Shown: one piece after another, positions 17,374 through 31,691 of the stretch
How the letters are laid out: every line of letters begins with the position of its first letter
How positions within the stretch are numbered: the stretch's first letter is position 1
Assembly: GCA_002298165.1 (NCBI GenBank)
Contig: DBMI01000041.1
Location: 51 to 64,050 of the forward strand
Origin: Desulfarculales bacterium UBA702
Lineage (GTDB): Bacteria; Desulfobacterota; Syntrophobacteria; Syntrophobacterales; Syntrophobacteraceae
Direction: 5' to 3'
Length of the DNA: 64,000 nt
The notes under the pieces: model-generated
What the model saw: only the letters and a program-made list of their open reading frames with translations
What the model was told of the DNA's origin: nothing
The model's database searches: none
Made by a program: the position numbers and the translations under genes

Positions 17374-17790
17374 TCACCGTTTCAGGATTCCGGCGAGGAG
17401 TTTCGTGGCTGAAGATGCACAGTCCATGTCCTGTTCAACGCTTCCACCGCTTACTCCAATCCCACCGATTATTGTCCCGTCCGCTTTCAGGGGAAATCCA
17501 CCCCCGAAAATGACAATACGACCGCCGACAGCGTTATGTATCCCAAACAGGGGTTGAGATGGTTGGGCCAGAGATGTCAATTCATGGGTCGGCATCTGCA
17601 AAGCGACTGCGGTGTAAGCTTTGTTTAATGAGATGTCGATGCTCACCAGGAGAGCGTTATCCATTTTCTGTTGGGCAACCAGATTTCCGCCTGCATCCAC
17701 AACAGCAATTATCATGGGAACGCCGATCTCGTCCGCCTTGGCGCGTGCGGTCTCAATCAGTTTCAGGGCCAAACCCAGATTCATTTGCAT
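17374..17790 (-). CDS. GlcG/HbpS-like DUF336 protein (PduO C-terminal-domain family), copy 2
   Basis: GVPMIIAVVDAGGNLV, SIDISLNKAYTA, GGGFPL..G.IIGGIGVSGGSVEQD. Confidence 0.8.
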   Translation of the reverse strand: MQMNLGLALKLIETARAKADEIGVPMIIAVVDAGGNLVAQQKMDNALLVSIDISLNKAYTAVALQMPTHELTSLAQPSQPLFGIHNAVGGRIVIFGGGFPLKADGTIIGGIGVSGGSVEQDMDCASSATKLLAGILKR

Positions 17791-17848
17791 TGTTTTCTCC
17801 TAAATGAGTGGTTCTCGACCTACCGCGTTTCCATCGGGCACATAGACC

Positions 17849-19243
17849 CTAAATTATCCTGAAAGCATCGACCAGTGTGCAGCGGCGGGCACGGGTAAAA
17901 GATCTTGCAGAGGTCAACCCTTCGCCCGTTGGTCCCGCAATCGTGAAAGCGGTATGCCCTTCTCCGCCAAGGCCGATTCCCGCGTAAGATGGGCCATTCT
18001 TTACGAATATGGTCGTTTCAACTTCTCGGGCGAACCTGGTCATATGTTCGATATGGTTTGAGTGAATGATAGCGGTGTGGCGATTTCCCTGTTCCACCTC
18101 CACTCCCAGCGAAATAGCTTCCGAAACGTTTGCGACGCGAACGATCGGAAGAATCGGCATCATCTGTTCGAGCCAAACCAGAGGATGTGTTCTAGGGGCT
18201 TCGAATATGGCAAGCCGGTATTGCTCTCCAATCGACAGGCCTATCTCTTTCAGGATCACCTGCACATTCTTTCCAATAAAAGCACCATTAATCTTTCGAT
18301 CGGATGTAACAACGATCCCGGTTATCTTCTCTACCTGTTCCGGGGTGAGGAGGTAGGCTTTGCCGGTTTCCTGCATGAACTTTATGAGAGCATTGGCGAC
18401 CGAGTCGACCACGATTACTTCTTTCTCGCTCGTGCAGAAGATGTTGTTATTAACACTCGCGCCGTCGATGATGCAGGAGGCGGCCCTGCGAATATTCGCG
18501 GTCTCATCCACTACGACCGGAGGATTACCGGCCCCGGCGCCTATTGCTTTTTTGCCGGATCGCAACACTGCTTGCACCACCGGCCTTCCTCCAGTTGCGA
18601 CCAGCATATCCACCTTCGGGTGAGCCATGAGTTCCCTGGCGGTTTCCAGGGTGGGTCTCGCGACCCCCCCGATCAACCCCGGCGGCCCTCCGGCTCGCAC
18701 TATGGCATCGTGCATTGTAGTAATGGTTTGGACACTGGTTCGGCCGGCATTCGGGTGAGCGTTGAATACAACGGAATTGCCTCCCGATATCATGCAAATG
18801 GAATTATGGATGAGCGTCCCGGTGGGGTTTGTGATAGGAGTCAGCGATCCGATAACTCCTCGCGGGGCATGTTCGACAAGCGTCAAACCATGGTCGCCGC
18901 TGTATGAGCGAGGTTCTATATCCTCGGGTCCGGTTGACTTCGTTGCACAAAGAATGTTTTCGCGGATTTTATCCTCGTAGCGTCCAAGCCCGGTTTCTTC
19001 AATTGCCAGTGCCGCGAGCCTTTCATTTCCATCCAGAGCAGCTTTCCGGATTGCTGCAATGATCTCCTTGCGACGGTCCAGGGAGAGCTTTTTCAATCGA
19101 TTCTGAGCCACCACCGCATTTTCTACAGCCTCATCGATTGTTTCGACGATTCCGGAATTGTTTCCCGAAAGCTCTCTTTCTTCCACCAACTCGATCAATA
19201 CTTTTTTAACCACTGCGGAGATGCTATCCAGATTGGTGTCCAT
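17849..19243 (-). CDS. pduP: CoA-acylating (propion)aldehyde dehydrogenase
   Basis: EutE/PduP-type ALDH with catalytic-Cys context NNNIFCTSEKEVIVV. The N-terminal amphipathic helix SISAVVKKVLIELV looks like an encapsulation peptide. Confidence 0.88.
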   Translation of the reverse strand: MDTNLDSISAVVKKVLIELVEERELSGNNSGIVETIDEAVENAVVAQNRLKKLSLDRRKEIIAAIRKAALDGNERLAALAIEETGLGRYEDKIRENILCATKSTGPEDIEPRSYSGDHGLTLVEHAPRGVIGSLTPITNPTGTLIHNSICMISGGNSVVFNAHPNAGRTSVQTITTMHDAIVRAGGPPGLIGGVARPTLETARELMAHPKVDMLVATGGRPVVQAVLRSGKKAIGAGAGNPPVVVDETANIRRAASCIIDGASVNNNIFCTSEKEVIVVDSVANALIKFMQETGKAYLLTPEQVEKITGIVVTSDRKINGAFIGKNVQVILKEIGLSIGEQYRLAIFEAPRTHPLVWLEQMMPILPIVRVANVSEAISLGVEVEQGNRHTAIIHSNHIEHMTRFAREVETTIFVKNGPSYAGIGLGGEGHTAFTIAGPTGEGLTSARSFTRARRCTLVDAFRII

Positions 19244-19262
19244 CGAAATATCTCCTCAAAAA

Positions 19263-19844
19263 CTAATGTCTATTATGATCCTGCAGGGCCAGGATGATTG
19301 AACCAGTCAGCAATGTTGACAATTCATACGGCAACCGGACACTTTGAACAGCTTCCCTCAGATTATTGTCCAGAGCTGAAAGAGCCTCATAGTGGCGACC
19401 CATGGGGAGCAATGCCCGAACCTTCGCGGCCAAAACCACCATCTCGTCGAAGCTTCTCACAACAGCATTTGCCACGCACTCGTCCTCTTCCACCGTTCCG
19501 CCGCTGATTCCGATCCCTCCCAGTACACGCCCATCCATACAAAGGGGAAGACCTCCGCCGAACAGTATGATCTTGCCGTTGTGAGTGTGCTCGATTCCAT
19601 AAAGGGGTCCGCCCGGCATCGCCAATTTTCCCAGTTCGCCGGTGGGCATGCGCAGAGCGGCAGCAGTATAAGCCTTGGAGATGGCAATTTCTGAGCTGGC
19701 TGGGAGTGTGCGATCCATCCTGGTGAAAAACTGAAGGTTTCCCGAGTGGTCCGCCAAGGCTATTGCCATCGGTACGCCCAACCCTGCGGCCTCGGCTTCA
19801 GCAATTGATCCTAAAAGCGAGTTGATTTCACAAGGTATTGTCAT
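19263..19844 (-). CDS. GlcG/HbpS-like DUF336 protein with ~60-aa C-terminal extension, copy 1
   Basis: GVPMAIALADHSGNL, SEIAISKAYTAA, GGGLPL..GRVLGGIGISGGTVEED. Start set at MTIPCE, giving a 17-nt overlap with pduO; the ORF could start at 19895. Confidence 0.75.
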   Translation of the reverse strand: MTIPCEINSLLGSIAEAEAAGLGVPMAIALADHSGNLQFFTRMDRTLPASSEIAISKAYTAAALRMPTGELGKLAMPGGPLYGIEHTHNGKIILFGGGLPLCMDGRVLGGIGISGGTVEEDECVANAVVRSFDEMVVLAAKVRALLPMGRHYEALSALDNNLREAVQSVRLPYELSTLLTGSIILALQDHNRH

Positions 19845-20436
19845 AAGCTGTTCTTCCGGATCTGGTTTTTCCGGGCGCAAGCTGAACAAGGACATCCTCT
19901 ATTCCGGCATAAACGGCAGTCGTCCAGGCCATTACAAAAAGCAAATCACTGAGCCTGTTGAAGTAAGGGATCAGGTCCCGATAGCTGTTGTTTTTTCGGT
20001 TCAGCCGCACCAGAAGGCGCTCGACCCGCCTGCACACCGATCTTGCGACATGAAGCGCGGCGCTGTCCGGTGAAGCGCCGGGGATAACGAAGGACTTGGA
20101 AAGGCCAAATGATTCGGTAAGCATGTCCAATTTGGCTTCCAGGGCCGTTATGTCTGATTTGTTCAAACGCCGTTTCAGGCTCGAAAGGGTGGGCGGAGTC
20201 GACGCCAATTCTGCTCCGGCCACAAAGAGGTCTTTCTGAATGGAAAAGATTATCGATCGCAAATCCTCCTGAGTCACCAGGGCGCGCGCCATTCCAAGGC
20301 TCGACTGCAGTTCATCGAGCGCCCCGTAGGTATCGACCCGAAGGTCGTCCTTCTCGACCGTTTCTCCGCTGAGGAGCCTGGTCCGACCCTGATCGCCAAA
20401 ACGGGTGTAAATCTTACTTTTCGCGTTTTCCATCAT
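19828..20436 (-). CDS. pduO: PduO-type ATP:cob(I)alamin adenosyltransferase (ATR domain only)
   Basis: KIYTRFGDQGRT..L, DDLRVDTYGALDELQSSLG, NRLSDLLFV. Confidence 0.88.
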   Translation of the reverse strand: MMENAKSKIYTRFGDQGRTRLLSGETVEKDDLRVDTYGALDELQSSLGMARALVTQEDLRSIIFSIQKDLFVAGAELASTPPTLSSLKRRLNKSDITALEAKLDMLTESFGLSKSFVIPGASPDSAALHVARSVCRRVERLLVRLNRKNNSYRDLIPYFNRLSDLLFVMAWTTAVYAGIEDVLVQLAPGKTRSGRTAYDNTL

Positions 20437-20471
20437 AATGTCTCACGTCCAATGGAGCGTCTGATCCGGAA

Positions 20472-20738
20472 TTAGCAGTTTATATCGTCTATAATCCCCA
20501 CTATCGTGGCATCCACCGGACATTCATTGTCGTCCAGACCCTGGCGTGCCCCGCTCCCCTGCACCACGAAAACACGCTCACCAACCCCGGCACCAACAGC
20601 ATCCACGGCAACAAACGGATCTCCCTTTGGCTCAATCCCCCTGTGGTCCAGAGGCTGGATGATCTGGATTTTACTTCCCAGCAGGCGCTCATGTTTGCGC
20701 GTGGCAACCAGAGTTCCGATGACTTTGGCAATAAGCAT
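20472..20738 (-). CDS. pduN: BMC-P pentameric vertex protein (EutN/PduN/CcmL family)
   Basis: 88 aa. MLIAKVIGTLVATRKHERLLGSKIQIIQPLD and the DAVGAG...VFVVQGS pattern. Confidence 0.88.
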   Translation of the reverse strand: MLIAKVIGTLVATRKHERLLGSKIQIIQPLDHRGIEPKGDPFVAVDAVGAGVGERVFVVQGSGARQGLDDNECPVDATIVGIIDDINC

Positions 20739-20767
20739 TGTCTGCCTCCTGTTTTGGACCCGCGACC

Positions 20768-21565
20768 CTAAGCCTTCATCAACTTGACGCCAAGTCTTCC
20801 GGCCAGGTCGCGTGCAAGGGGAGTCACGAGCCCGGCAGGTCCAAGATTTAAATTCGCCTTCTTCTTGTGAGCACTAAGTACATCTCCTGAAGTAGCGATC
20901 TTTCCCGAAACGGTAATCGCTTGACGGGGCAACGGCATGGGTTCCCTTGGGATTCGCCCGCGCGCTTCATTCCGGATCAATGAGTGTGCTGTTTCCGCGA
21001 GTGCACCGACGCCGGTCAGGGTGCACCCGAGTTCTTCCAGTTTTTTGAGGCGCTGGTGCATCAGTTCATTGAGCACGCTGTTTCCCTTATTGAAGCCCAG
21101 AGCCTTGCGGCCATCCCCGTAAGGGTCCGCTCCTTCTTTTGCCAATATGGTAGGCTTTCCGAAAAGGAGGGAATGCAGAAGGATATTGCTCACCAGATCG
21201 TCAGCAATGAGCAAAGAGAGTTTGGTTGCCGTATTGAGACTCAACAAAGGGACAGCCACAACTTCTGCCGCTTTTACTGAAGAAATCCATTTCTCGGGCG
21301 ATAAAAGACAAAGGTTCGGAAATCCGCTCAATTCCTCCCGGACCATTTCGGCAAAGAGGTGCCCGGCTGACCTGGAAAAAACCAGCTCGATTTTGTATCC
21401 ATCGAGGAGGAGAGATTTGACCTGCCGGATGCTTTCGACCAGTCCGACGGTTGCGCCGGTAAAGACGACTATTACGCTGCCCTTGGGCGCGTTATCGTTC
21501 ATGCGCGCGAGCAATCTGCGGATTACTTCCTCGACGATCAGTTGGAATTGTTCTTCCGTTATCAC
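20768..21565 (-). CDS. PduM-like microcompartment protein, long form with flavoprotein-like central domain
   Basis: The N-terminus EEQFQLIVEEVIRRLL and C-terminus LVTPLARDLAGRLGVKL match both ends of Salmonella PduM as I recall it. The middle resembles an HFCD flavoprotein fold (VVAVPLLSLNTATKLSLLIADDLVSN). Confidence 0.65.
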   Translation of the reverse strand: MITEEQFQLIVEEVIRRLLARMNDNAPKGSVIVVFTGATVGLVESIRQVKSLLLDGYKIELVFSRSAGHLFAEMVREELSGFPNLCLLSPEKWISSVKAAEVVAVPLLSLNTATKLSLLIADDLVSNILLHSLLFGKPTILAKEGADPYGDGRKALGFNKGNSVLNELMHQRLKKLEELGCTLTGVGALAETAHSLIRNEARGRIPREPMPLPRQAITVSGKIATSGDVLSAHKKKANLNLGPAGLVTPLARDLAGRLGVKLMKA

Positions 21566-22428
21566 GAGGTCCCGCTCCCTGTTAACCTTTCACTAGTCCC
21601 CATGGCAACATCACGACAATTTAAGGCTATCCCCAGAGGAGTTACCAGCAACGGCCGGACCGGTATTTCGACTTTGAGCCCAATTTCCGATTCCATTACC
21701 TGCTTTATCCCGGGAAAACTGCTTGTGCCTCCAACCAGGTAGATGGTATCCACCCGGTGACGCATAAGATGGCTCTTTACGATGGCGGCCATCTTTTCGA
21801 AAACGGGTCTTATGATGGGGAATATCTCCGGTTGGCGCGCGGGATCGGTCTTGATTTTTTCGGCTTCCGCAGTATCAATTTTGAACCGGCCCGCGATTAC
21901 CAGATCCGCATGAATCCCGCCCGTGGCTTCATCCGCGGTGTACACAACCGCACCGCCACGGATGATGCTGATGCCTGTCGTACCGCCACCGATATCTACA
22001 ACGGCCCCGTCGTTTATTCCCAGCACCACCGATGCCGCGGTAGGTTCCTCGATGAGTCCGGCAACCTCGAGATCGGCCGCATCGAGTACATTCGCAAAGA
22101 TCCTCGCATTCGCACGCCCGGTTCCTGGCGGATAAGCCGCCGCAGCCGTCCATATCTCGAAACCGGCCTCTCTCAGTGCGTTCACCTGCCGACGCAACGT
22201 TGAAACGGCCTGAACATAATCAAGAACGAGCCCATCCCTGATTGCCGAATGGCTGCGGGTAATCACACCGGCTACGGGAGCCCTTTTTGCGTCGACAACT
22301 GCCGTTACCGTGTAGGCCGTCCCGAGATCGACCCCGGCATATAAGGGCTCATCGCGCTCGATGACTTTTTCCAACGCAAGAGAAGCCTCAAATTCCAGCA
22401 GCAGTTTATTTGCTGATTTCGGTATCAT
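21562..22428 (-). CDS. eutJ: EutJ-like actin/Hsp70-fold ATPase
   Basis: VDLGTAYTV, DIGGGTTGISI, VYLVGGTSSFPGI. 4-nt overlap with the next gene. Confidence 0.85.
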   Translation of the reverse strand: MIPKSANKLLLEFEASLALEKVIERDEPLYAGVDLGTAYTVTAVVDAKRAPVAGVITRSHSAIRDGLVLDYVQAVSTLRRQVNALREAGFEIWTAAAAYPPGTGRANARIFANVLDAADLEVAGLIEEPTAASVVLGINDGAVVDIGGGTTGISIIRGGAVVYTADEATGGIHADLVIAGRFKIDTAEAEKIKTDPARQPEIFPIIRPVFEKMAAIVKSHLMRHRVDTIYLVGGTSSFPGIKQVMESEIGLKVEIPVRPLLVTPLGIALNCRDVAMGTSERLTGSGTS

Positions 22429-22437
22429 GGGCCTGCC

Positions 22438-23052
22438 TCATTCCTTGCCGGAAATCCTCAATACGGCCGTTTCAGCAGCATCTTTGGCGCGGGCGACATC
22501 AGATTCCTTGCCCCCGATATAAAGTCTCCCAACCGCTCCAAACGCCCGGCAGTCCACCAGCGTTATCTGAGAGTTTTTTTCTGCTTCGTTGGCTGCAAGC
22601 ATGATATAGCCGGCGGGAACGACTTCCAGAATGTACATATCCTGCCCGGGCAACACCATCGAACACAGCCTCGATACGTTCACCATCTGAACGTGGTAGT
22701 CGTTCATCTTGTGGATTATCTGGGAGTTCAGTATCTTAGGTTTAAGGCGGTCGTTCTGGACAACTCCAAGGGATTTCAGCGCGGCCTCGCCGGCATGCTT
22801 TACTTCCGCCTGAGCCTTCGAATGAAATTCCAGGACACCAAAATGCCGCTCAACCACCAGGAGACCGGGACGTACATTGGCGGCCTTGAGGGCTGCATCC
22901 GCGACCTGATTGATAAGGACTCCGGGGGCGATTTCCACAAGGATGGAAGCCATGCCGACAACGGGCAGGTATCCGCGCGCATTAGCTCCCATGTAGGCGG
23001 TGAACTGTGGTTGCATTCGATCGATATAAACAAAAGCACGGAGTTCGAGCAT
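22438..23052 (-). CDS. divergent tandem BMC-domain shell protein (BMC-T-like)
   Basis: Two halves each align by eye to the PduA core (ILVEIAPG..DAALKAANV; ILEVVPAG..NEAEKNSQI..GAVGRLYIGG). Each half has an extra ~30-aa leader. Confidence 0.6.
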   Translation of the reverse strand: MLELRAFVYIDRMQPQFTAYMGANARGYLPVVGMASILVEIAPGVLINQVADAALKAANVRPGLLVVERHFGVLEFHSKAQAEVKHAGEAALKSLGVVQNDRLKPKILNSQIIHKMNDYHVQMVNVSRLCSMVLPGQDMYILEVVPAGYIMLAANEAEKNSQITLVDCRAFGAVGRLYIGGKESDVARAKDAAETAVLRISGKE

Positions 23053-23077
23053 CAATGATCCTTTCGGTCTCCATCAG

Positions 23078-23593
23078 TTATTTTTCCGGTTTTTTCCTGC
23101 CCTTAGCCGATTTGAAAGACTTGGGTCCCCGGGTTTCCGGGACCTTTGGTGTCTTTGACCTGGTCGAACCGGTATTTGTATGTTCTGCAGGCCCGTCCTG
23201 CTCCATGACTGATTCAGCAATAGCATTAGGGCCGCTGACAATCGTGGGAACAGGCCGGTCTGAGGCCGTGGACAGGTCTTTCGTCCTTGCGGGAGCATAC
23301 TCTTTCCAGGCAGTATCCGGCGAAGCGGTGCCATTCGCGGCCAATTGCCCGTGAGGGCGTGGAATCACATGGACCGAGACGACTCGGCCAACTTTTCGCG
23401 CCGCCGCTGACCCTGCGGTGACCGCGGCCTTGACAGCCGCCACATCCCCCGAGAATTTCACGGTAACCAGGCCCATTCCCACAAAATGGTATCCGATAAA
23501 AACAACCCGGCTGGTTTTGCATGCTGTGTCAACTGCCTCCACCGCCGCCGTATAACCCTGGGTTTCTATCAGTCCGAGGCTTTCACGCTGCAT
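23078..23593 (-). CDS. pduK: BMC-H shell protein with long C-terminal tail (PduK-like)
   Basis: [24 protein letters not shown]...[18 protein letters not shown]...VHVIPRPH, then ~80 aa of low-complexity, Lys-rich tail. Confidence 0.8.
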
Positions 23594-23602: not shown

Positions 23603-23965
23603 TTATTTGCCGTGCTTTTCGTCGATAACAAGCGGCTGTCCTTTTGCCAAACGGCCCGCATTTGTCCCCAACCGGCGAAGCCGCGATGGCTCAAAAATTT
23701 CGCCGGAAAGCCGAAACAAGGGCTGTCCCAAAGGCAAATCCCGGTGATGAAGAACTATTTCCTCTGCATTCTTTATGGCAATTCCGACGTTTAGCGCTGA
23801 ATTGCGGGAAGCCTCCTTGGCCAAGTCTGTCGCGCTTTCGCACCGAATAACCTCCCTGAGTTCGAAAAGGACGCCCTCTTCTTCAACGCCCCACAAAAGA
23901 GGCTCTACACTGCTGGTCTGAACCGATTGCGTCCGCAATATCAAAATGACTGGTTTGGCGCTCAC
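23603..23965 (-). CDS. pduH: diol dehydratase reactivase small subunit
   Basis: 120 aa immediately after, and overlapping by 4 nt with, the large reactivase subunit. DdrB/PduH-like size and position. Confidence 0.75.
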   Translation of the reverse strand: MSAKPVILILRTQSVQTSSVEPLLWGVEEEGVLFELREVIRCESATDLAKEASRNSALNVGIAIKNAEEIVLHHRDLPLGQPLFRLSGEIFEPSRLRRLGTNAGRLAKGQPLVIDEKHGK

Positions 23966-25794: not shown

Positions 25795-25889
25795 GCCGGA
25801 CTCTTCCGTTTATTGGCGCCGGTTTAGGCAGCCGAAAACGCCAGTGTTGAACAAAACCCGGGCACCCAGCCACAGTTTCTTGAACTCTG

Positions 25890-26453
25890 TCAGCTGCTTT
25901 TCAACCGGCCCCGCTTGTCATACACCTCCGCGGCCTCACGAACGATGGCAGCACAGGCGCGGGCCTGGTACTGCGTCTCCAGTTCACTCGCAATGTCCAG
26001 CAGTTCCTTTTTGGTAGAGCGATACGGCCTCAAAGCCTCATAGATCTCCAGAAGCCGTTCGTCCGTGATGCGGGTCATTTCCGCCGCCCTGCGAATGTTG
26101 CCCGCAAGCTGCGGTCTTCCGACAGCCTCGGCAATTTGAGCCTGATACTCAAGAGTTTCAGGCCGAATCTTTATATCGTTGAAGCTGATTTTTCCTGCCT
26201 GCACCTGGTCGAGGTTAATTTCTTCGAGCTTGAGGCCGGTGGCGGTGCGAACCAGGTCCGGTCTTTTTTGTGCAATCGGATAGTCGGACCTGGGGTCAAG
26301 CCGTTTAAGCGAAGAAATAACCGAAGGGGCGCTCTCTCCACTCAAGACGGCCATAACCCTTTTTACGGCCTCCTGGATCAGATCCGGTGAAACATCGACT
26401 CCTTTACTTCGAGCCATTCGATCTACCAAAGCCGATATCTGTTCATCGCTCAT
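25890..26453 (-). CDS. pduE: B12-dependent diol/glycerol dehydratase small subunit
   Basis: Aligns to recalled Salmonella PduE (RPETLEYQAQIA, LLEIYEALRPYRSTKKELL, AAIVREAA). Carries an N-terminal extension. Confidence 0.9.
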   Translation of the reverse strand: MSDEQISALVDRMARSKGVDVSPDLIQEAVKRVMAVLSGESAPSVISSLKRLDPRSDYPIAQKRPDLVRTATGLKLEEINLDQVQAGKISFNDIKIRPETLEYQAQIAEAVGRPQLAGNIRRAAEMTRITDERLLEIYEALRPYRSTKKELLDIASELETQYQARACAAIVREAAEVYDKRGRLKSS

Positions 26454-26506
26454 AGCGCGTCTCTCCTGACAAAATGGTTCCGGAATTAAGAAGCCACTGA
26501 CCGACT

Positions 26507-27151
26507 CTACAGTCGGACCGCAACCTCTTCCGGCGGTTTATCGGGATTCAGGTACTGGACCTCTTTATTGTAGAGCAAAGCCGCCAGGCCCTGATAACGG
26601 GGTCTCGCCATCGGATCATTACGGACCGGAACCGGCCTCGGGCTGTCCCCCTTTGCATACTTGGCGGCGTTTCTTCCCATGGCGCGGAAAGTTGCCAGAT
26701 CCAGCAGAGGGGATTGTGAAAAAAGCTCGAGGTTTTGCAGGGGTTTAAGATCCTTCTGATGTATGACGGCGGTTCCCCTGGACTGCACGCCGATTCCGAT
26801 TCCGGAACCGCTGAGTTTGGCCGCATCATGGGACATGAAAGCAACATCGACCGTACGGTTTACCTTGATAATGCGTGCCTTCAGCCCTTCTTCCTCGATT
26901 CCGGCCAGGATTTCCCTTAAGACCTGCTGATGGGGGATGCCGATTATCGTACTGGTCATCGCGGTGCCAAACGCGGGCGGTATGGCTATTACGACTTCAT
27001 TCTTATCCACACCCTGCTTCGCCGGCCCTATCAGTTTGAATTCCACGGGCGCGGAAGCTTTACCGGCAGAGCTGCCCAAACCTCCATTGCCGGCCAGGTC
27101 CCGCAGCACCTCAAGGATGACCTCTCTTACTATGTCTTCAGTGATTTTCAT
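26507..27151 (-). CDS. pduD: B12-dependent diol/glycerol dehydratase medium subunit
   Basis: Aligns to recalled PduD (EVVIAIPPAFG, ILREILAGIEEEGLKARI, SGSGIGIGVQSRGT). The N-terminal helix DIVREVILEVLRDL is present. Confidence 0.9.
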   Translation of the reverse strand: MKITEDIVREVILEVLRDLAGNGGLGSSAGKASAPVEFKLIGPAKQGVDKNEVVIAIPPAFGTAMTSTIIGIPHQQVLREILAGIEEEGLKARIIKVNRTVDVAFMSHDAAKLSGSGIGIGVQSRGTAVIHQKDLKPLQNLELFSQSPLLDLATFRAMGRNAAKYAKGDSPRPVPVRNDPMARPRYQGLAALLYNKEVQYLNPDKPPEEVAVRL

Positions 27152-27176
27152 CTGTCTTGCCTCCTTGGGTGGCCTC

Positions 27177-28844
27177 CTAAATGTCTGCTGGGCTTATGGC
27201 CTGGGGAATATCTTTCAGTATCTCCCATCGCGCGCCTTCGAGGCGATATCCCGTACCCGGTCCTTTGTAGTCGTTAGGATCATTTACCGCGCTCAAGACA
27301 TCGAAGTTACCTTCGAGAATGGCAGATGTATGTAGATAGTCGCCGGTGATTTTTTGTCGCAGTATTCCGAGAACTGCCTCGGCGACATCCGTGAAACCAT
27401 TCTTAGCCAGTGCTCGCACAACATCCAGACCGTTGCCGCCCCGTTTCATGAAAGCGTCGATCGAGCTGAGGTCCTCGGTCGTGTTCCGGTCGGGAACATC
27501 TCTTGACCCATGAGCATAGGTCACCGCTTCGACCTCCTCATCGGTCACCGACGGCAGGCCCAAGTCCCTGAAGACCGCCTGAATGGCTCTGGCACCCTTG
27601 TTGCGAATCATAATTACGTCCTCCTCCTTGACCGGGATGCAACCCCCGTCGATCTGGAGGTCGCGCTGGAGGACGAGGTAGTCGTCATAATCATCGCAGT
27701 CGTGGGTCGAGCCCGCAAACATGTTGTCATAATTGGGGACACTACTGTAGCCGGAGAATATGAGGTCGGTGCCGGGAAGAAACTGCATGAGCATTCGGGC
27801 GGCATTGCGAATTGGCGAGTGGGTGAAGGTCTGGTCGTTTCCCGAGGCAACCTCCAGGTCCATCAGCACGGTCGCAACGTTCTCGCCAAGGACAGCGCGA
27901 ATACCCGAGGGCACCGCACCAGGAACTCCAATGCAGCTTATGGAGCCGTTCTGAAGACCCTGAACGCCTGCTCCCTTCGCCACCATTACACAACGGATTT
28001 CGAGATAAAGCATCGACTTGCCTTCAGCGTACCCCATCTGCACTTCCGAACCCGTACCGGACGTGAAGCGCATCTTGAGTCCACGCGATGCATAAGCGGA
28101 AGCCAGAAAAGCTTTGGACCACGGCGTATCATCGCCATCCACGAAGACCTGATCGGTCCCGTAAACGGAAACCGTTTCAGCATATGCAGTAAGTCCGCGC
28201 ATGCCCATACTCAGTTCCAGAGCTTCCTCGACGGCGCATTGGGTAATTACGCCGGGCCGGCCCGTCTGGGAACCAACGAGAATGGACAGAGCATTCATCG
28301 GAGCATATCGTCCTACACCGACGGTGGTTTCCAACTCGCTGAATCCCCTGAAAGCGGCTTCGGCGGCATCAGCGGCCAGGAGTACCGGGTGATCCTTCAA
28401 GTTTGTCACATGAGCCTGGTTGGACGGCGTGCGACGCGGCCGCATTTTCTGCATGGCCATCATCATCTCCACGACGTTCAGCTTCTTGATTACGTCCAGT
28501 ATTTTGGCAGGGGTCATGCCAACGGAGAGCCGGACAATTTCAGAACGCGGAACATTGATGTCCACAAGCATCCGGGCAAATTGAAGAGAATCCAGCGCCA
28601 TTGCTTCCTGGGCAACCGAGGTGTCAATGCAGTGATCGGCGATCCATGTATCGATCATGTCGAAGTCGGGACGTTTTTTTCCGTCCAGTTCCGCGACTTT
28701 GCCGTCCTGTATACGGATTCCCGGCTTGGGGTCATTGGGGTTTTCCATGGCAACCAGGCCGACCTCAACCCATTCTTTGATGAAGCCGTCCTTGTTGACG
28801 GGACGTTCTGCCAACACTTGAAATCTTTTCTGTCTTTTACTCAT
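27177..28844 (-). CDS. pduC: B12-dependent diol/glycerol dehydratase large subunit
   Basis: 555 aa. MSKRQKRFQVLAERPVNKDGFIKEW... and full-length PduC/DhaB1-like sequence. Confidence 0.92.
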   Translation of the reverse strand: MSKRQKRFQVLAERPVNKDGFIKEWVEVGLVAMENPNDPKPGIRIQDGKVAELDGKKRPDFDMIDTWIADHCIDTSVAQEAMALDSLQFARMLVDINVPRSEIVRLSVGMTPAKILDVIKKLNVVEMMMAMQKMRPRRTPSNQAHVTNLKDHPVLLAADAAEAAFRGFSELETTVGVGRYAPMNALSILVGSQTGRPGVITQCAVEEALELSMGMRGLTAYAETVSVYGTDQVFVDGDDTPWSKAFLASAYASRGLKMRFTSGTGSEVQMGYAEGKSMLYLEIRCVMVAKGAGVQGLQNGSISCIGVPGAVPSGIRAVLGENVATVLMDLEVASGNDQTFTHSPIRNAARMLMQFLPGTDLIFSGYSSVPNYDNMFAGSTHDCDDYDDYLVLQRDLQIDGGCIPVKEEDVIMIRNKGARAIQAVFRDLGLPSVTDEEVEAVTYAHGSRDVPDRNTTEDLSSIDAFMKRGGNGLDVVRALAKNGFTDVAEAVLGILRQKITGDYLHTSAILEGNFDVLSAVNDPNDYKGPGTGYRLEGARWEILKDIPQAISPADI

Positions 28845-28860
28845 TGGCAGCCTTCCTTGG

Positions 28861-29667
28861 TCAGATATAGGGTTGAGTTACAGGCTTGGCTTCCTGGCCC
28901 CATGCGGACAACAGCTTCACCCCTACTTCCCGCCCGGCTATTACCGCCTGCCGCACAGCACCCGAATCGCCCGACACCCAGATCATCACTTCATTGGTGA
29001 GGCTTGTCCCCTTCGAAGGCGACGCGTATCCCACCACTTCCACATCGGCAGCCTTGACGGCCGTATCGATCATCAGAACGCCGATAACGGCAGGCGCGCC
29101 CAGAATGAGTCCAAAAGCCTTCCCTTCGGGGGTGTTGAATACCTGATTGAGGCACCGGCTAGCGCGGGCCGTGTATTGAAGTTCAAGGTGGCCCTGATCG
29201 TTCGCGTAGACGTCTCCAAAATACTTTGGCAGTACCTCGAGGGTGACTTCGACGGCGCGTCGGGCATCCGATACATCTTCTGCTCCGAAGATGATCAGAT
29301 TTCCGTGTCCGGCCCCGCCTTTTGTGTCCCTGGGCATCTGAACCGAAAGTATGTCAGTGTTTGTCGCCTTCACGGCTTCATCTGCCGCCATTATATGGGG
29401 CCCCGCTCCGACACGGCCTCCAATGACACCGATCGAACGGTATTTCCCGTCTATCCCCATTAAATTGTGAATGCAGGGGTCAAGATTGGCTATGACGATG
29501 CCCTGGGTTTCCCCCATGCCGATGCCTACAAATTCCGTCACCTGTACCAGATCATCACGGCAGGCCGCCGCCGGGCCATTTTGCCTGGCCTCCTTCGTGC
29601 CTTCTGGAGCAGACCCCACCCTTTTCATTACTTCTTTCATGACTCTGTCGATCAGTTCCTCTTGCAT
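28861..29667 (-). CDS. pduB: BMC-T tandem-domain shell protein
   Basis: 268 aa. N-terminal helix ELIDRVMKEVMKRV, then VTEFVGIGMGETQGIVIANLDP. PduB-like, and sits in the pduA-pduB-pduC position. Confidence 0.85.
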   Translation of the reverse strand: MQEELIDRVMKEVMKRVGSAPEGTKEARQNGPAAACRDDLVQVTEFVGIGMGETQGIVIANLDPCIHNLMGIDGKYRSIGVIGGRVGAGPHIMAADEAVKATNTDILSVQMPRDTKGGAGHGNLIIFGAEDVSDARRAVEVTLEVLPKYFGDVYANDQGHLELQYTARASRCLNQVFNTPEGKAFGLILGAPAVIGVLMIDTAVKAADVEVVGYASPSKGTSLTNEVMIWVSGDSGAVRQAVIAGREVGVKLLSAWGQEAKPVTQPYI

Positions 29668-29694
29668 CGGATATCACCTCCCGCTCGCATCCTG

Positions 29695-30006
29695 CTAAGG
29701 ATGAGCTTTTGTGATCGATTCACCGGATTCCGTCAGTTGGGGCAGAATCATTTCGACTTCCTGGTGAGGCCTTGGGATCACATGGATCGAGATCACCTCG
29801 CCGACTTTCTGGGCAGCGGCGGCGCCTGCATCAGTGGCGGCCTTTACCGCGCCCACGTCTCCCCTCACCATTGTGGTTACAAGGCCGGCCCCTATTTTCA
29901 CATAACCAACCAATTGGACATTGGCTGCCTTGACCATGGCATCAGAAGCTTCGATCATCGCAACCAGGCCTCGTGTTTCTATCAATCCCAACGCTTCCTT
30001 AGTCAT
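29695..30006 (-). CDS. pduA: BMC-H hexameric shell protein
   Basis: [56 protein letters not shown]. Confidence 0.92.
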
Positions 30007-30083
30007 CAGAGTTCTCCTGTTTTCGATTGTTCACTATGAGGAAAATGTTGCCCGGGGGCGGCTTTTCAAGCCCCCGGGACCTG

Positions 30084-30584
30084 TTAGGCATTTTTGACGG
30101 CGGCTTCTTCTTCGGATTTTGCCTTGAACCATCCCGGGGCTGTTGCGGAGAGAATGCCGGCGCAGTTGCCGATCACCATGCAAACTGCCGTATTGATCAG
30201 AGTGTCGGTGATGAGGCCCTGATGAGCACCGAGATTGCCGAAAAAGACCGCTGCTCCGACAAATTGGGCAGGTATAGCGGAGAGCATCTTGATATTCCCC
30301 TCGATAGTCATGACGAAGCAAAACACTCCTATCCAGGCGGACAAAAGGAGCATGCTGCCTCCACCCAATTCCTTCCATGACCAGAAGAAAAGCGCACCCT
30401 GTATCATACCGGCGAGATTGGCGGCAATGGATTTGCTCAGCGCATCCTTATTGCCTCCGGCGAAGTAGAAGCTGGCCCATGCGGCGTATCCAACCCAAGC
30501 GACCAGCCATGCCACCTGGGTAGTGATAAAGAACCACAATCCGCAGAGCACACCGATACTGATGGATATGGGCATGAGAGCCAT
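30084..30584 (-). CDS. small polytopic inner-membrane protein, DUF1097 (YcdZ-like)
   Basis: 166 aa, about 5 TM helices. Resembles my recollection of E. coli YcdZ (W.G..A...YFA.G). Directly abuts the gldA stop codon. Confidence 0.5.
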   Translation of the reverse strand: MALMPISISIGVLCGLWFFITTQVAWLVAWVGYAAWASFYFAGGNKDALSKSIAANLAGMIQGALFFWSWKELGGGSMLLLSAWIGVFCFVMTIEGNIKMLSAIPAQFVGAAVFFGNLGAHQGLITDTLINTAVCMVIGNCAGILSATAPGWFKAKSEEEAAVKNA

Positions 30585-31691
30585 TTACAATCCTTTCCTG
30601 TAATCTTTGGCGAGTGCATCAGCCGTCCAGATTGCGGCTTCAACCTTGCTGGCCGTCACCTCAAACCAGGTGGCATGAATAGTTTCACCCGGGGCGGTTG
30701 TCGCTTCAGCCACCTTGCGTATTTCCTCGGGGGTGGGGTTATGAATTCCCAGATCATCGAGGCAGACTGGCAGTCCGACCGAGATGCAGAAATCCAGCAC
30801 CTCTTCAATTTCATCCGAGGAACGTCCCTCCATGATCAATTGGGTAAGGGTACCGAACGCCACTTTCTGGCCGTGGAGTTTATGATGAGAGGCTTCCAGA
30901 ACCGTAAATCCGTTGTGCACCGAATGGGCGCCCGCAAGACCGCCGCTTTCGAACCCGAGGCCGCTTAACAGCGTATTGGCCTCCACAATGGCTTCCACGG
31001 CTGGTGTGACCATGTTTTTCTCGACCGCCAGCTTCGCCTGTACGCCATATTCCAGCAAAGTCTCGTAGCAAAGGCGGGCAAGCGAGTGGGCAGAGCGGAA
31101 TGGAGGGCATCCGCCGGTGAGCACATTCGGCTTACAGCTCTTGAAGCAGGTGTCGGCCTCCCAGTAGGTAGCCAGGGCGTCCCCCATGCCCGAAACCAGG
31201 TATTCAGCAGGAGCCTTGGCAACGATACCAGTGTCTACCAGCACGCAATCGGGATTTTTTGGCAGAACGAGATAGCGCTCGAAGACCCCGTCATCGGTAT
31301 AGACAACCGAAAGAGCGGAACACGGGGCGTCCGTGGCGGCGATTGTGGGGATAACCACCACGGGGATTTTCATGTAGTGGGCTACTGCTTTTCCGGTATC
31401 GATCACCTTGCCGCCACCGGATGCTATAACAACGTCACACCCCTCTTTTTGCGCGATCTCCACCAGACGGTTAATCTCATTGGTCGAGCACTCACCATTG
31501 AAGAGTTCTTTGCGGCATGAAACACCCTTTTCAGCTAGACTTGACTCGATGGCCTGGCCGCATACGGACATTGCTCTTTTTCCGGCCGTGAAAAGGGCCT
31601 TGGTTCCAAGCCTTGCCGCATTAACGCCTATTTCGCTGATTGCGCCCTCTCCCTGAACGTAACGACTTGGTGCGATCAATATCCTGCTCAT
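30585..31691 (-). CDS. gldA: glycerol dehydrogenase (Fe-ADH superfamily, GldA type)
   Basis: Near full-length match to recalled E. coli GldA: PTIAATDAPCSALSVVYTD, GDALATYWEA, GFESGGLAGAHSVHNG, HGQKVAFGTLTQL. Confidence 0.9.
   Translation of the reverse strand: MSRILIAPSRYVQGEGAISEIGVNAARLGTKALFTAGKRAMSVCGQAIESSLAEKGVSCRKELFNGECSTNEINRLVEIAQKEGCDVVIASGGGKVIDTGKAVAHYMKIPVVVIPTIAATDAPCSALSVVYTDDGVFERYLVLPKNPDCVLVDTGIVAKAPAEYLVSGMGDALATYWEADTCFKSCKPNVLTGGCPPFRSAHSLARLCYETLLEYGVQAKLAVEKNMVTPAVEAIVEANTLLSGLGFESGGLAGAHSVHNGFTVLEASHHKLHGQKVAFGTLTQLIMEGRSSDEIEEVLDFCISVGLPVCLDDLGIHNPTPEEIRKVAEATTAPGETIHATWFEVTASKVEAAIWTADALAKDYRKGL

What the first reader, a model, noticed from the sequence alone, without database searches (positions are those of the whole stretch)
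17374..31691. Compact B12-dependent diol/glycerol-dehydratase microcompartment operon with an incomplete enzyme core
Sixteen co-directional genes are tightly spaced or overlapping. The order A-B-C-D-E-G-H-K-(x)-(x)-M-N-O-(x)-P is colinear with the Salmonella pdu operon. Nothing recognisable as PduL (phosphotransacylase), PduQ (NAD+-recycling alcohol dehydrogenase), PduW, PduS, PduJ/T/U/V/X or PduF is present. Both operon ends are fixed in this window, by the tRNA remnant on one side and the regulator genes on the other. A shell, a signature enzyme, a reactivase, an adenosyltransferase and an acylating aldehyde dehydrogenase are present without CoA- or NAD+-recycling partners. This implies cofactor regeneration happens by another route: unlinked genes, exchange across the shell, or one of the unassigned proteins here. 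Propionyl-CoA or 3-hydroxypropionyl-CoA may be handed directly to central metabolism rather than converted to the acyl-phosphate.
Basis: partly seen in the sequence, partly recalled or inferred. Interest (0 to 1): 0.75.

Follow-up and report, generated by a model that had tools for sequence, protein, structure and literature searches.

The report
Compact PDU1D propanediol microcompartment operon
This is an intact B12-dependent diol (or glycerol) dehydratase microcompartment operon of the already catalogued PDU1D type, in a Syntrophobacteraceae bacterium on an 18.7 kb tRNA-flanked cassette; it lacks the usual CoA-recycling enzyme, as many catalogued loci do.

Summary
The operon is real: 18 tightly packed genes on the minus strand (31691 to 17374), preceded by a PocR-domain histidine kinase and a LuxR-type response regulator. 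Gene order is colinear with the enterobacterial pdu operon.

No PduL, Pta-type transacylase, acetate/propionate kinase, PduS, PduT, PduU, PduV or PduF is encoded anywhere in the 64 kb window.

- The first operon gene is a full-length glycerol-dehydrogenase-family enzyme. It is not a PduQ orthologue and has no encapsulation peptide.
- The gene called 'M' is a 265 aa UbiX/CoaC-fold flavoprotein with an encapsulation-peptide-like N-terminus. Only its C-terminal domain is PduM-like.

The locus type is already catalogued as PDU1D (Axen 2014; Sutter 2021). The catalogue names two relatives I retrieved as PDU1D main loci. The 15-gene core is colinear in about 25 full-length MAG loci from four phyla, and PduL was detected in only one.

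The cassette is bounded by tRNA-Arg and a 92 nt copy of its 3' half plus terminator.

How cofactors are recycled remains inferred. My best guess is exchange through the CcmP-like gated BMC-T, with propionyl-CoA fed directly into central metabolism.

Verdict: a new member of a known kind, of modest interest.

The parts
32837..34531 (-). Sensor histidine kinase with an N-terminal PocR domain, PAS, HisKA and HATPase_c domains
   Evidence: Pfam PocR 6e-44 and HATPase_c 7e-23. The E. coli PocR protein matches only this ORF. This kinase is the PDU1D hallmark according to Axen 2014.
32097..32729 (-). LuxR/GerE-type response regulator
   Evidence: Response_reg 1e-28 and GerE 6e-21. A terminator-like hairpin follows at 32049-32032.
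30585..31691 (-). First operon gene: a glycerol-dehydrogenase-family (GldA-type, Fe-ADH superfamily) polyol dehydrogenase with no terminal extension
   Evidence: PF00465 6e-33. NF006941 1e-152, residues 1-366 of 368. PDB glycerol dehydrogenases score 390 bits, aligned from residue 1. Present upstream in the Syntrophobacteraceae relatives only.
30084..30584 (-). DUF1097 small integral membrane protein directly abutting gldA; candidate substrate channel (inferred)
   Evidence: PF06496 1e-24. Conserved next to gldA in L005-L007, L009, L011 and L014, and fragmentary in L004.
29695..30006 (-). PduA/PduJ-type BMC-H shell protein
   Evidence: PF00936 8e-29. PduA 132 bits and PduJ 131 bits.
28861..29667 (-). 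PduB-type BMC-T (single-layer, permuted) shell protein
   Evidence: PF00936, two stretches. E. coli PduB 307 bits.
25890..28844 (-). PduC, PduD and PduE: B12-dependent diol/glycerol dehydratase large, medium and small subunits. PduD and PduE carry N-terminal amphipathic extensions.
   Evidence: PF02286 1019 bits, PF02288 and PF02287. PduC scores 861 bits to diol dehydratase 1dio and 847 bits to glycerol dehydratase 1iwp. N-terminal sequences read.
23603..25794 (-). PduG and PduH: dehydratase reactivase large and small subunits
   Evidence: DDR 3.5e-152, DDR_swiveling and Dehydratase_MU. PduG 723 bits.
23078..23593 (-). PduK-like BMC-H with a low-complexity, lysine-, proline- and threonine-rich C-terminal tail
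   Evidence: PF00936 1e-24, residues 5-80 of 171. Sequence.
22438..23055 (-). CcmP/CsoS1D-like double-stacking BMC-T (BMC-Tdp) with the VVER (E69, R70) pore motif
   Evidence: NF053796 CcmP 251 bits, below its cutoff. PF27545 CsoS1D_N. 199 bits to H. ochraceum BMC-T 5v74/6n07 and 195 bits to CcmP 4ht5. 80% identical to the Tdp of Syntrophobacterales GWC2_56_13, which is catalogued as PDU1D.
21562..22428 (-). EutJ-like actin/Hsp70-fold ATPase
   Evidence: NF011660 EutJ 7e-100.
20768..21565 (-). 265 aa flavoprotein in three parts: an N-terminal encapsulation-peptide-like helix, a UbiX/CoaC (HFCD) fold, and a PduM-like C-terminal domain
   Evidence: PF02441 25.4 bits, cutoff 22.7. AF2 pLDDT 87.7. 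Foldseek top matches are UbiX, PPC decarboxylase and EpiD, E 3e-7. hhalign to the PduM family covers the C-terminal 50 residues, probability 76%, E 2e-5. The Sutter 2021 supplement holds an EP HMM named 'HMM02441_04.PDU1D'.
20472..20738 (-). PduN/EutN BMC-P pentamer
   Evidence: PF03319 2e-31.
19828..20436 (-). PduO-type ATP:cob(I)alamin adenosyltransferase (N-terminal domain only)
   Evidence: PF01923 1e-51, TIGR00636 1e-49.
19263..19895 (-). DUF336/HbpS-like protein, equivalent to the PduO C-terminal domain, with a roughly 60 aa C-terminal extension. The likely start is 19844 (193 aa).
   Evidence: PF03928 2e-36. The public gene call gives 193 aa. It is separate from the adenosyltransferase gene in most relatives and appears fused in frame in L027 and L037.
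17849..19243 (-). [quoted passage not shown]
   Evidence: NF011927 620 bits. E. coli PduP 382 bits. N-terminus read.
17374..17790 (-). Second, short DUF336/HbpS-like protein; last gene of the operon
   Evidence: PF03928 1.6e-42. Present only in the Syntrophobacteraceae relatives.
35610..35683 (-). Intact tRNA-Arg(CCT), upstream boundary of the cassette
   Evidence: ARAGORN. Rfam RF00005 67.4 bits.
35560..35652 (-). Direct-repeat copy 1: the 3' half of tRNA-Arg plus a terminator hairpin
   Evidence: the repeat finder families D1 and D2. Terminator at 35597-35562. Sequence.
16863..16954 (-). Direct-repeat copy 2: a decayed tRNA-Arg 3' half (the 'tRNA remnant') plus the same terminator hairpin, 18.7 kb from copy 1
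   Evidence: The two segments are 89% (56 nt) and 78% (40 nt) identical to copy 1. Terminator at 16900-16866. Sequence.

Best explanation
The region is a self-contained 18.7 kb cassette. It lies between tRNA-Arg(CCT) and a decayed copy of that tRNA's 3' half, in a Syntrophobacteraceae (Desulfobacterota) genome. It encodes a PDU1D-type B12-dependent vicinal-diol metabolosome.

Shown by sequence:
- A PocR-domain histidine kinase and a LuxR-type regulator precede an 18-gene operon.
- The shell set is complete: two BMC-H, a PduB-type BMC-T, a CcmP-like double-layer BMC-T and a pentamer.
- PduCDE dehydratase is present with the PduGH reactivase and a PduO-type adenosyltransferase.
- PduP is present, as are an EutJ-like ATPase, a PduM-related flavoprotein and two DUF336 proteins.
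- PduD, PduE, PduP and the flavoprotein carry N-terminal amphipathic helices of the encapsulation-peptide kind. The GldA-type dehydrogenase does not.

Inferred:
- 1,2-propanediol, or glycerol or another vicinal diol, is sensed through the PocR domain and enters, possibly via the DUF1097 membrane protein.
- It is dehydrated inside the shell to propionaldehyde (or 3-hydroxypropionaldehyde) and oxidised by PduP to the acyl-CoA.
- No phosphotransacylase, PduQ-type dehydrogenase or PduS/PduT pair is encoded here. Acyl-CoA/CoA and NADH/NAD+ therefore most likely cross the shell, with the large gated pore of the BMC-Tdp as the obvious conduit.
- Propionyl-CoA then enters the host's methylmalonyl-CoA pathway directly instead of being converted to propionyl-phosphate.
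- The GldA-type enzyme most likely acts in the cytosol on the substrate side, interconverting glycerol and dihydroxyacetone, or acetol and 1,2-propanediol. It is probably not the lumenal NAD+ recycler.
For: Identity of the parts.

Classification:
- Axen 2014 defines PDU1D by the PocR-domain kinase two-component system.
- Sutter 2021 states that only PDU1D loci from Proteobacteria and one Acidobacterium carry a basal CcmP-like BMC-Tdp.
- The supplement trees of that paper label Syntrophobacterales GWC2_56_13 and Telmatospirillum 26-4b1 as PDU1D main loci. I retrieved both as relatives, L010 and L035.

Conservation: the core A-B-C-D-E-G-H-K-Tdp-EutJ-flavoprotein-N-O-DUF336-P is colinear in about 25 full-length loci from four phyla (the two Rhodospirillales loci L033 and L036 lack the adenosyltransferase).

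Absence of recycling enzymes:
- Six-frame phmmer over the window finds none, and Pfam assigns all other large ORFs to unrelated families.
- tblastn over the relatives finds PduL only in L035, and PduS plus a PduT-like gene only in L009-L011.
- Flank genes of the Syntrophobacteraceae relatives are housekeeping genes.

Other points:
- GldA has no extension.
- The flavoprotein has a UbiX/CoaC fold, not a PduL fold.
- Cassette boundaries and higher GC (0.54-0.56 against about 0.48-0.52 in the flanks).
- A large gated Tdp pore as a proposed conduit for larger metabolites is stated in Sutter 2021.
- Cofactor exchange across the shell is discussed as a possibility in PMC11626177.
- The methylmalonyl-CoA pathway in Syntrophobacter is from my own knowledge.
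Against: - The rest of the genome is not available, so a satellite locus with PduL, PduQ or PduS/T cannot be excluded. Such satellites are common in the catalogue.
- Telmatospirillum has the same core and the same Tdp together with PduF, PduQ and PduL. Tdp presence therefore does not by itself imply a PTAC-free mechanism.
- Salmonella PduQ is reported to be encapsulated without a classical N-terminal peptide (from my own knowledge). Lack of an extension therefore does not prove that GldA is cytosolic.
- No experiment links Tdp pores to CoA or NAD transport.
- Substrate specificity cannot be decided: PduC is equidistant from diol and glycerol dehydratases.
- No integrase lies within the cassette, so 'integrated island' is an inference from the repeats and the GC shift alone.
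Confidence: 0.6

Rival explanations
1. The core is complete but dispersed. PduL (and PduQ or PduS/PduT) are encoded in a satellite locus elsewhere in the genome and are targeted to this shell, so the compartment works exactly like the Salmonella paradigm.
For: Satellite loci and 'consolidated loci' are a standard feature of the catalogue. Relatives with the same core carry PduL, PduQ and PduF (L035) or PduS plus a PduT-like gene (L009-L011) immediately downstream, so these modules are compatible with this shell.
Against: None is present in 64 kb around the operon. Apart from L035, none of the related loci has a detectable PduL within 10 kb of the Tdp gene. The cassette is bounded by repeats and carries its own regulators, which suggests it travels as a functional unit.
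Confidence: 0.3
2. The compartment is primarily a glycerol (3-hydroxypropionaldehyde) organelle rather than a 1,2-propanediol organelle. GldA provides the oxidative dihydroxyacetone branch, as in the Klebsiella/Citrobacter dha regulon.
For: A glycerol-dehydrogenase-family gene heads the operon. PduC scores almost equally to glycerol dehydratase. The acidobacterial locus L016 carries a GlpP glycerol-3-phosphate antiterminator, and L016 and L035 each carry an OprB porin downstream. Axen 2014 notes a PocR-domain two-component system in the C. butyricum 1,3-propanediol operon.
Against: There is no DhaT-type 1,3-propanediol oxidoreductase and no dihydroxyacetone kinase in the window. PduD and PduE have the N-terminal extensions typical of encapsulated diol dehydratases. 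GldA enzymes also act on 1,2-propanediol/acetol, and NCBIfam names a bifunctional family. This reading is not exclusive of the best explanation.
Confidence: 0.3
3. The encapsulation-peptide-tagged flavoprotein (20768-21565) is the missing lumenal NAD+ regenerator. It would be an FMN-dependent NADH oxidoreductase that replaces PduQ and PduS.
For: It has a confident UbiX/CoaC FMN-binding fold and an N-terminal EP-like helix, with an EP HMM in the Sutter supplement. It is strictly conserved in every locus of this clade. Flavin-binding families are a recurrent, unexplained feature of BMC loci.
Against: No electron exit route is encoded: I found no PduT-type Fe-S shell protein. HFCD-family enzymes are not known NADH dehydrogenases (from my own knowledge). 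Its C-terminal domain and position match PduM, which is described as a structural or assembly protein (from my own knowledge). It co-occurs with PduS and the PduT-like gene in L009-L011 and with PduQ in L035, so it is not an alternative to them.
Confidence: 0.12
4. The cassette is a decaying, non-functional remnant of a larger pdu island that lost its 3' genes (pduQ, pduS, pduT, pduL).
For: It is flanked by a tRNA and a degenerate tRNA copy, with no integrase. Relatives carry additional downstream genes.
Against: All 18 ORFs are intact, full length against their family models, and tightly coupled. The same compact form (gldA to short DUF336, no PduS/T) is kept in five further genomes (L004-L007, L014) at 47-96% protein identity by gene.
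Confidence: 0.04

Closest known systems
PDU1D loci of the Kerfeld-lab BMC catalogue (Axen 2014; Sutter 2021), specifically the Tdp-containing proteobacterial/acidobacterial subset, e.g. Syntrophobacterales bacterium GWC2_56_13 (MICJ01000009.1, my L010)
   Same: PocR-domain kinase plus response regulator, gldA upstream, and the identical core order A-B-C-D-E-G-H-K-Tdp-EutJ-flavoprotein-N-O-DUF336-P. Protein identities to L010 range from 41% (PduK) to 95% (PduA), for example Tdp 80% and PduC 87%.
   Different: L010 and its near relatives L009 and L011 add PduS and a PduT-like BMC-T downstream of PduP. L010 lacks DUF1097, and L010 and L011 lack the short DUF336. The window's lineage (with L004-L007 and L014) has no PduS/T and ends with the short DUF336.
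Telmatospirillum siberiense 26-4b1 PDU1D locus (NZ_PIUM01000014.1, my L035)
   Same: Same 15-gene core including Tdp (66% identity), the EutJ-like gene and the flavoprotein. Catalogued as a PDU1D main locus.
   Different: It continues downstream with an MntP-like membrane protein, an OprB porin, a PduF-like channel, a PduQ-like Fe-ADH, two more BMC-H genes and PduL. Its core is therefore complete. It has no gldA/DUF1097 upstream.
Enterobacterial pdu operon (PDU1A/AB; Salmonella, here E. coli 6EVA, L038)
   Same: Homologous and colinear PduA, B, C, D, E, G, H, K, N, O and P. Same chemistry is expected: diol to aldehyde to acyl-CoA.
   Different: This locus lacks PduJ, L, Q, S, T, U, V, F and the AraC-type PocR. 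It has a split PduO, a long flavoprotein in place of the 163 aa PduM, and an added EutJ, BMC-Tdp, gldA, DUF1097 and second DUF336. Control is by a two-component system rather than an AraC-type regulator.
Metabolosome loci with incomplete cores, and the PduS/PduT (MNdh/BMC-T^SE) NAD+ regeneration module (Axen 2014; PMC11626177)
   Same: An acylating AldDH is present without a locus-encoded PTAC and without a PduQ-type AlcDH. [quoted passage not shown]
   Different: Those 361 loci are explained by PduS/PduT. Here that pair is also absent, so none of the three described recycling modules is encoded in the cassette.
CcmP / CsoS1D / Haliangium ochraceum BMC-T2,T3 double-stacking trimers
   Same: Full-length homology (174-199 bits) and a conserved VVER pore segment.
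   Different: It sits in a PDU locus, which the catalogue calls an unusual outlier at the base of the Tdp tree. It scores below the NCBIfam CcmP cutoff (251 against 340 bits).

Membership tests
PDU-type metabolosome locus | Shell genes: at least one PF00936 BMC-H/T and one PF03319 BMC-P | tested here: met
   Four PF00936 proteins and one PF03319 protein.
PDU-type metabolosome locus | Signature enzyme: B12-dependent diol dehydratase subunits PF02286, PF02288 and PF02287 | tested here: met
   1019, 128 and 195 bits. 861 bits to PDB 1dio.
PDU1D subtype (Axen 2014) | A two-component system whose histidine kinase carries a PocR domain, and no AraC-type PocR | tested here: met
   PocR-PAS-HisKA-HATPase kinase plus a LuxR-type regulator directly upstream. 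E. coli PocR matches only the kinase's PocR domain. Definition read.
PDU1D subtype, Tdp-containing subset (Sutter 2021) | A BMC-Tdp of the basal CcmP-like clade within the PDU locus | tested here: met
   The Tdp is 80% identical to that of Syntrophobacterales GWC2_56_13 and 66% to that of Telmatospirillum 26-4b1. [quoted passage not shown]
PDU1D subtype | Formal assignment with the catalogue's own HMM set (BMC Caller) | not testable with these tools
   The locus-typing HMM library is not available here. The assignment rests on colinearity and identity with catalogued members.
Canonical complete metabolosome core (signature enzyme + AldDH + AlcDH + PTAC) | CoA-acylating aldehyde dehydrogenase PF00171 with an encapsulation peptide | tested here: met
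   PduP NF011927 620 bits. N-terminal amphipathic helix read.
Canonical complete metabolosome core | Phosphotransacylase: PduL PF06130 or Pta PF01515 | tested here: not met
   No PduL match in the six-frame translation of the 64 kb window at E <= 10. No large ORF hits either family. The rest of the genome was not available.
Canonical complete metabolosome core | Encapsulated alcohol dehydrogenase of the PduQ/EutG Fe-ADH type | tested here: inconclusive
   Gene 1 hits PF00465 (6e-33) but belongs to the glycerol dehydrogenase subfamily. Its hit to EutG is 2.8e-07 over about 100 residues only, and E. coli PduQ gives phmmer E = 0.0015. It has no terminal extension. Localisation cannot be tested here.
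PduS/PduT (MNdh/BMC-T^SE) electron-export module | A PF01512-type PduS adjacent to a PduT-type BMC-T with a pore cysteine | tested here: not met
   No PduS match in the window. The module is present in relatives L009-L011.
PduM family (PF15953) | A match to the PduM profile over its length | tested here: not met
   No PF15953 hit even at E <= 10. BLASTP to E. coli PduM gives E = 0.11. Only the C-terminal 50 residues align in a profile-profile comparison (76%, E 2e-5). The protein is related to PduM but is not a member.
HFCD / UbiX-type flavoprotein (PF02441) | A profile match above the gathering score, and the Rossmann-like flavin-binding fold | tested here: met
   25.4 bits against a cutoff of 22.7. 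Foldseek to UbiX, PPC decarboxylase and EpiD gives E 3e-7 and TM about 0.6-0.69 normalised to the target. Flavin binding itself was not tested.
tRNA-integrated genomic island | Direct repeats made of a tRNA 3' segment at both ends | tested here: met
   A 92 nt repeat at 35560-35652 and 16863-16954.
tRNA-integrated genomic island | An integrase or recombinase gene inside the element, and an empty site in a relative | tested here: not met
   The two small unassigned ORFs at the cassette edges have no Pfam hit. The empty-site search retrieved only distant TetR homologues. Flanks of relatives are unrelated.

The most novel reading that the evidence does not exclude
This lineage (the window plus L004-L007 and L014) may carry a naturally minimal PDU organelle that lacks all three described cofactor-recycling modules: PduL, a PduQ-type ADH, and PduS/PduT. 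It would work as an open system. Acyl-CoA, CoA, NADH and NAD+ would pass through the gated pore of the CcmP-like double-layer BMC-T. The PduM-related lumenal flavoprotein might contribute redox or assembly functions. Propionyl-CoA would be delivered directly to the methylmalonyl-CoA pathway of a syntrophic or sulfate-reducing host.
Probability: 0.2. Interest if true: 0.6.

Novelty: new member of a known kind. Interest (0 to 1): 0.33.

Why it matters
Whether bulky cofactors cross microcompartment shells, or must be recycled inside, is a standing question in the BMC field. A compact, self-regulated 18.7 kb cassette encodes a full shell with a gated double-layer trimer but none of the known recycling enzymes. 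It would make a convenient natural test bed for heterologous expression, pore-gating mutants and cofactor-dependence assays.

Ecologically, it suggests that Syntrophobacteraceae and many soil and peat Acidobacteriaceae can use 1,2-propanediol or glycerol through an organelle and feed propionyl-CoA straight into central metabolism.

As a discovery it is incremental. The locus type, its odd BMC-Tdp, its PocR kinase and the existence of incomplete cores are all already published.

Tried and rejected
- Megablast of the operon against E. coli genomes found no match. The organism is not enterobacterial.
- I used a metagenome-contig scan with the neighbouring TetR protein to look for an 'empty site' lacking the cassette. 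It returned only TetR homologues of 48% identity or less, and not even the source contig.
- tblastx of the window flanks and blastn of the 92 nt repeat against the related loci found nothing. Contexts differ, but this cannot separate mobility from ordinary loss of synteny.
- I tested whether the 265 aa protein could be a cryptic PduL. Sequence search against the PDB found nothing. The structure prediction and fold search gave a UbiX/CoaC flavoprotein fold, so that idea is rejected.
- I tested whether it is PduM. There is no PF15953 hit, so it is not a member. Only the C-terminal domain is homologous.
- I tried to discriminate diol from glycerol dehydratase by PDB scores: 861 against 847 bits, which is uninformative.
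- There is no cobalamin riboswitch or any other Rfam family in the window apart from the tRNA.
- The promoter and terminator consensus scan found no more sites than shuffled controls. Only the duplicated hairpins and the one after the regulator gene were informative.
- Supplementary locus tables of Sutter 2021 that would list satellite genes per genome are not held as text.
- Two literature searches for this locus type in Syntrophobacter or Acidobacteria found nothing specific.

Full report
**What is there**

ORF listing and profile searches show 18 co-directional genes on the minus strand from 31691 to 17374. Most gaps run from -4 to 95 nt. The exception is the overlap between the adenosyltransferase gene and the long DUF336 gene, which is 68 nt with the longest ORF and 17 nt with the start used by the public gene call.

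In transcription order the genes are:
- a glycerol-dehydrogenase-family enzyme (30585-31691)
- a DUF1097 membrane protein
- a PduA-type BMC-H
- PduB
- PduC, PduD and PduE
- PduG and PduH
- a PduK-like BMC-H with a low-complexity tail
- a CcmP/CsoS1D-like double-layer BMC-T
- an EutJ-like ATPase
- a 265 aa PF02441 flavoprotein
- PduN
- a PduO N-terminal-type adenosyltransferase
- a DUF336 protein
- PduP
- a second, short DUF336 protein (17374-17790)

Directly upstream, on the same strand, are a LuxR-type response regulator and a PocR-PAS histidine kinase. The statistics leave no room for chance: PduC scores 1019 bits, PduG 3.5e-152 and PduP 620 bits.

**Source of the window**

The window is JGI metagenome contig Ga0243509_100186. 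It has no megablast match in E. coli genomes. Its closest relatives among species-representative genomes are Syntrophobacteraceae MAGs, whose double-layer BMC-T is 80-91% identical.

**Checking the claimed absences**

I took an annotated E. coli pdu operon as a reference and ran phmmer with its proteins against all six-frame ORFs of at least 40 aa in the 64 kb window.
- PduA, B, C, D, E, G, H, J/K, N, O and P found their counterparts in colinear order.
- PduL, PduS, PduM, PduU, PduV and PduF found nothing.
- PocR matched only the kinase's sensor domain.
- PduQ matched only the first operon gene, marginally (E = 0.0015).
- PduT could not be used as a query because it is a pseudogene in the reference. 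No extra BMC-domain ORF appeared outside the operon.

Every other ORF of 230 aa or more in the window belongs to an unrelated family. That excludes acetate/propionate kinase, Pta and PduX. The phosphotransacylase and the downstream pdu genes are therefore genuinely missing from this contig.

First, the interval holds 18 genes, not 16.

Second, gene 1 hits the Fe-ADH model PF00465 at 6e-33. The protein is a full-length member of the glycerol dehydrogenase subfamily:
- NF006941 scores 1e-152.
- Solved glycerol dehydrogenases score about 390 bits and align from residue 1.

It is thus an NAD-linked polyol dehydrogenase, but not a PduQ or EutG orthologue, and it has no terminal extension that could serve as an encapsulation peptide. 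By contrast, PduD, PduE, PduP and the flavoprotein all begin with amphipathic helices of the encapsulation-peptide kind.

Third, the gene labelled 'M' does not match the PduM family, even at E = 10.
- With an alignment of 41 homologues AlphaFold gives a confident model (pLDDT 87.7).
- The core of that model superposes on UbiX, phosphopantothenoylcysteine decarboxylase and EpiD (Foldseek E 3e-7). It is a flavoprotein fold, not a PduL fold.
- A profile-profile comparison with a PduM alignment shows that only the C-terminal 50 residues are homologous (probability 76%, E 2e-5).
- The N-terminal helices also look alike, but not significantly.

The protein is best described as a long, flavoprotein-containing relative of PduM that occupies PduM's position in the operon.

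**Is it a known kind?**

Yes. Axen et al. 2014 single out PDU1D loci for a two-component system whose kinase carries a PocR domain. Sutter et al. 2021 report that the only PDU loci with a double-layer BMC-T are PDU1D loci from Proteobacteria and one Acidobacterium, which form an outlier at the base of that tree.

The phyloXML supplements of the 2021 paper label 'Syntrophobacterales GWC2_56_13' and 'Telmatospirillum 26-4b1' as PDU1D main loci with this 'basal ccmP-like' trimer. They also contain an encapsulation-peptide HMM named for the PF02441 protein of PDU1D. Both genomes came up independently in my search (L010 and L035).

**Comparative picture**

tblastn of the window's proteins against 34 related loci shows the same 15-gene core, from PduA through PduP, in the same order in about 25 full-length loci (the two Rhodospirillales loci L033 and L036 lack the adenosyltransferase). 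The shorter contigs carry matching fragments. The hosts are Syntrophobacteraceae, Acidobacteriaceae, a Verrucomicrobiia MAG and Rhodospirillales.

Accessory genes vary by lineage:
- gldA plus DUF1097 upstream, and the short DUF336 downstream, occur only in the Syntrophobacteraceae.
- PduS plus a PduT-like trimer follow PduP in L009-L011.
- The acidobacterial loci examined carry several accessory genes: a divergent true Fe-ADH and an MntP-like membrane protein in several loci, an OprB porin and a GlpP antiterminator in L016, and a PocR-GAF-sigma54 activator in L019.
- Telmatospirillum continues with a PduF-like channel, a PduQ-like dehydrogenase, two more BMC-H genes and PduL.

PduL was detected in only that one locus. 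The downstream flanks of the Syntrophobacteraceae relatives hold housekeeping genes.

The window's form has no PduL, no PduQ-type enzyme and no PduS/PduT. Five further genomes share it (L004-L007 and L014). It is the most reduced version of a catalogued type.

**Boundaries**

- An intact tRNA-Arg(CCT) lies at 35610-35683.
- Its 3' half, from the anticodon loop onward, together with the terminator hairpin after it (35560-35652), is repeated at 16863-16954. That is about 420 nt beyond the last operon gene.
- The T-arm of the second copy has decayed.

The 18.7 kb between the repeats contains exactly the two regulators and the operon. Its GC content is 0.54-0.56, against roughly 0.48-0.52 in the flanks. 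This is the signature of a cassette acquired at a tRNA gene.

Two caveats apply. No integrase is present. My attempt to find an empty site also failed. The flanks of the relatives are unrelated to those of the window.

**How it most likely works**

Shown by sequence:
- a complete shell set
- an encapsulation-tagged dehydratase with its reactivase and adenosyltransferase
- an encapsulation-tagged acylating aldehyde dehydrogenase

Inferred:
- A vicinal diol is sensed by the PocR-domain kinase. It is dehydrated in the lumen and oxidised by PduP to the acyl-CoA.
- PduC scores equally to solved diol and glycerol dehydratases (861 against 847 bits). The substrate could therefore be 1,2-propanediol, glycerol or both. 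The gldA gene here, and the GlpP gene in an acidobacterial locus, keep glycerol in play.
- None of the three described recycling routes is encoded in the cassette. Those routes are PduL for CoA, PduQ for NAD+, and PduS/PduT for electron export (PMC11626177). The simplest reading is that CoA/acyl-CoA and NAD+/NADH exchange across the shell.
- The double-layer trimer is the natural candidate conduit. It is fully homologous to CcmP and to the H. ochraceum BMC-T, and the VVER pore segment is conserved. The literature proposes the large gated pore of such trimers as a route for larger metabolites.
- In a Syntrophobacteraceae host, propionyl-CoA is itself the entry metabolite of the methylmalonyl-CoA pathway (from my own knowledge). 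Converting it to propionyl-phosphate would then be pointless.

These last steps are not demonstrated. Telmatospirillum has the same trimer together with PduL and PduQ. In addition, the rest of this genome is unseen, so a satellite locus remains a serious rival (about 0.3).

**Verdict**

- The 'incomplete core' is real for the phosphotransacylase. It is overstated for the dehydrogenase.
- The locus is a member of a published subtype within a field that already recognises incomplete cores as common.
- What is mildly new is that this Syntrophobacteraceae form lacks all three known recycling modules, and that it sits on a repeat-bounded, self-regulated cassette. That would make it a practical system for testing cofactor passage through shells.

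Interest is modest (0.33). Novelty: a new member of a known kind.

Noticed in passing
window 16863-16954 and 35560-35652: A 92 nt direct repeat, made of the tRNA-Arg(CCT) 3' half plus a terminator hairpin, brackets exactly the two regulators and the pdu operon (18.7 kb, higher GC). No integrase lies inside. It looks like a tRNA-targeted cassette whose recombinase has been lost.
   Followed up: partly
window 20768-21565; alignments A1 and A2: The C-terminal ~50 aa domain (consensus VTAADV..AH..G..L.L.....VTPLARDLA...GV.L) of the PDU1D flavoprotein is homologous to the C-terminus of enterobacterial PduM (hhalign 76%, E 2e-5). Both proteins start with a similar amphipathic helix. PduM may be a reduced descendant of a BMC flavoprotein that lost its flavin-binding core.
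   Followed up: partly
window 19828-19895; L027 about 12733-13884; L037 about 12720-13886: The adenosyltransferase and DUF336 halves of 'PduO' are separate genes, often overlapping, in most loci of this clade. They appear fused in one reading frame in two acidobacterial loci.
   Followed up: partly
L016 1109-2260, 15521-18657; L019 18-2144; L023 15509-16153: Acidobacterial and verrucomicrobial versions of the locus swap the two-component system for a PocR-GAF-sigma54 activator. They also add a divergent true Fe-ADH, an MntP-like membrane protein directly after PduP, an OprB porin and a GlpP glycerol-3-phosphate antiterminator.
   Followed up: partly
L035 15374-20612: The Telmatospirillum siberiense locus continues after PduP with an MntP-like protein, an OprB porin, a PduF-like channel, a PduQ-like Fe-ADH, two BMC-H genes and the start of PduL. 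The same core therefore exists with a complete recycling set.
   Followed up: partly
L028 7717-10800; L030 14039-17197: Two acidobacterial loci carry two tandem PduP paralogues, about 47% and 67% identical to the window's PduP.
   Followed up: no
L010 17378-19153 (minus strand): In the catalogued Syntrophobacterales GWC2_56_13 locus, a 591 aa AMP-binding acyl-CoA synthetase-like gene converges on the end of the PduS/PduT pair.
   Followed up: no
window 47063-49327 and 55810-57507: Two large conserved proteins of unknown function (DUF3141, 813 bits; DUF6178, 499 bits) lie elsewhere in the window, unrelated to the operon.
   Followed up: no
window 17005-17349 and 35097-35450: Two small ORFs (114 and 117 aa) at the inner edges of the cassette have no Pfam match. 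They may be spurious, or remnants of mobility genes.
   Followed up: partly
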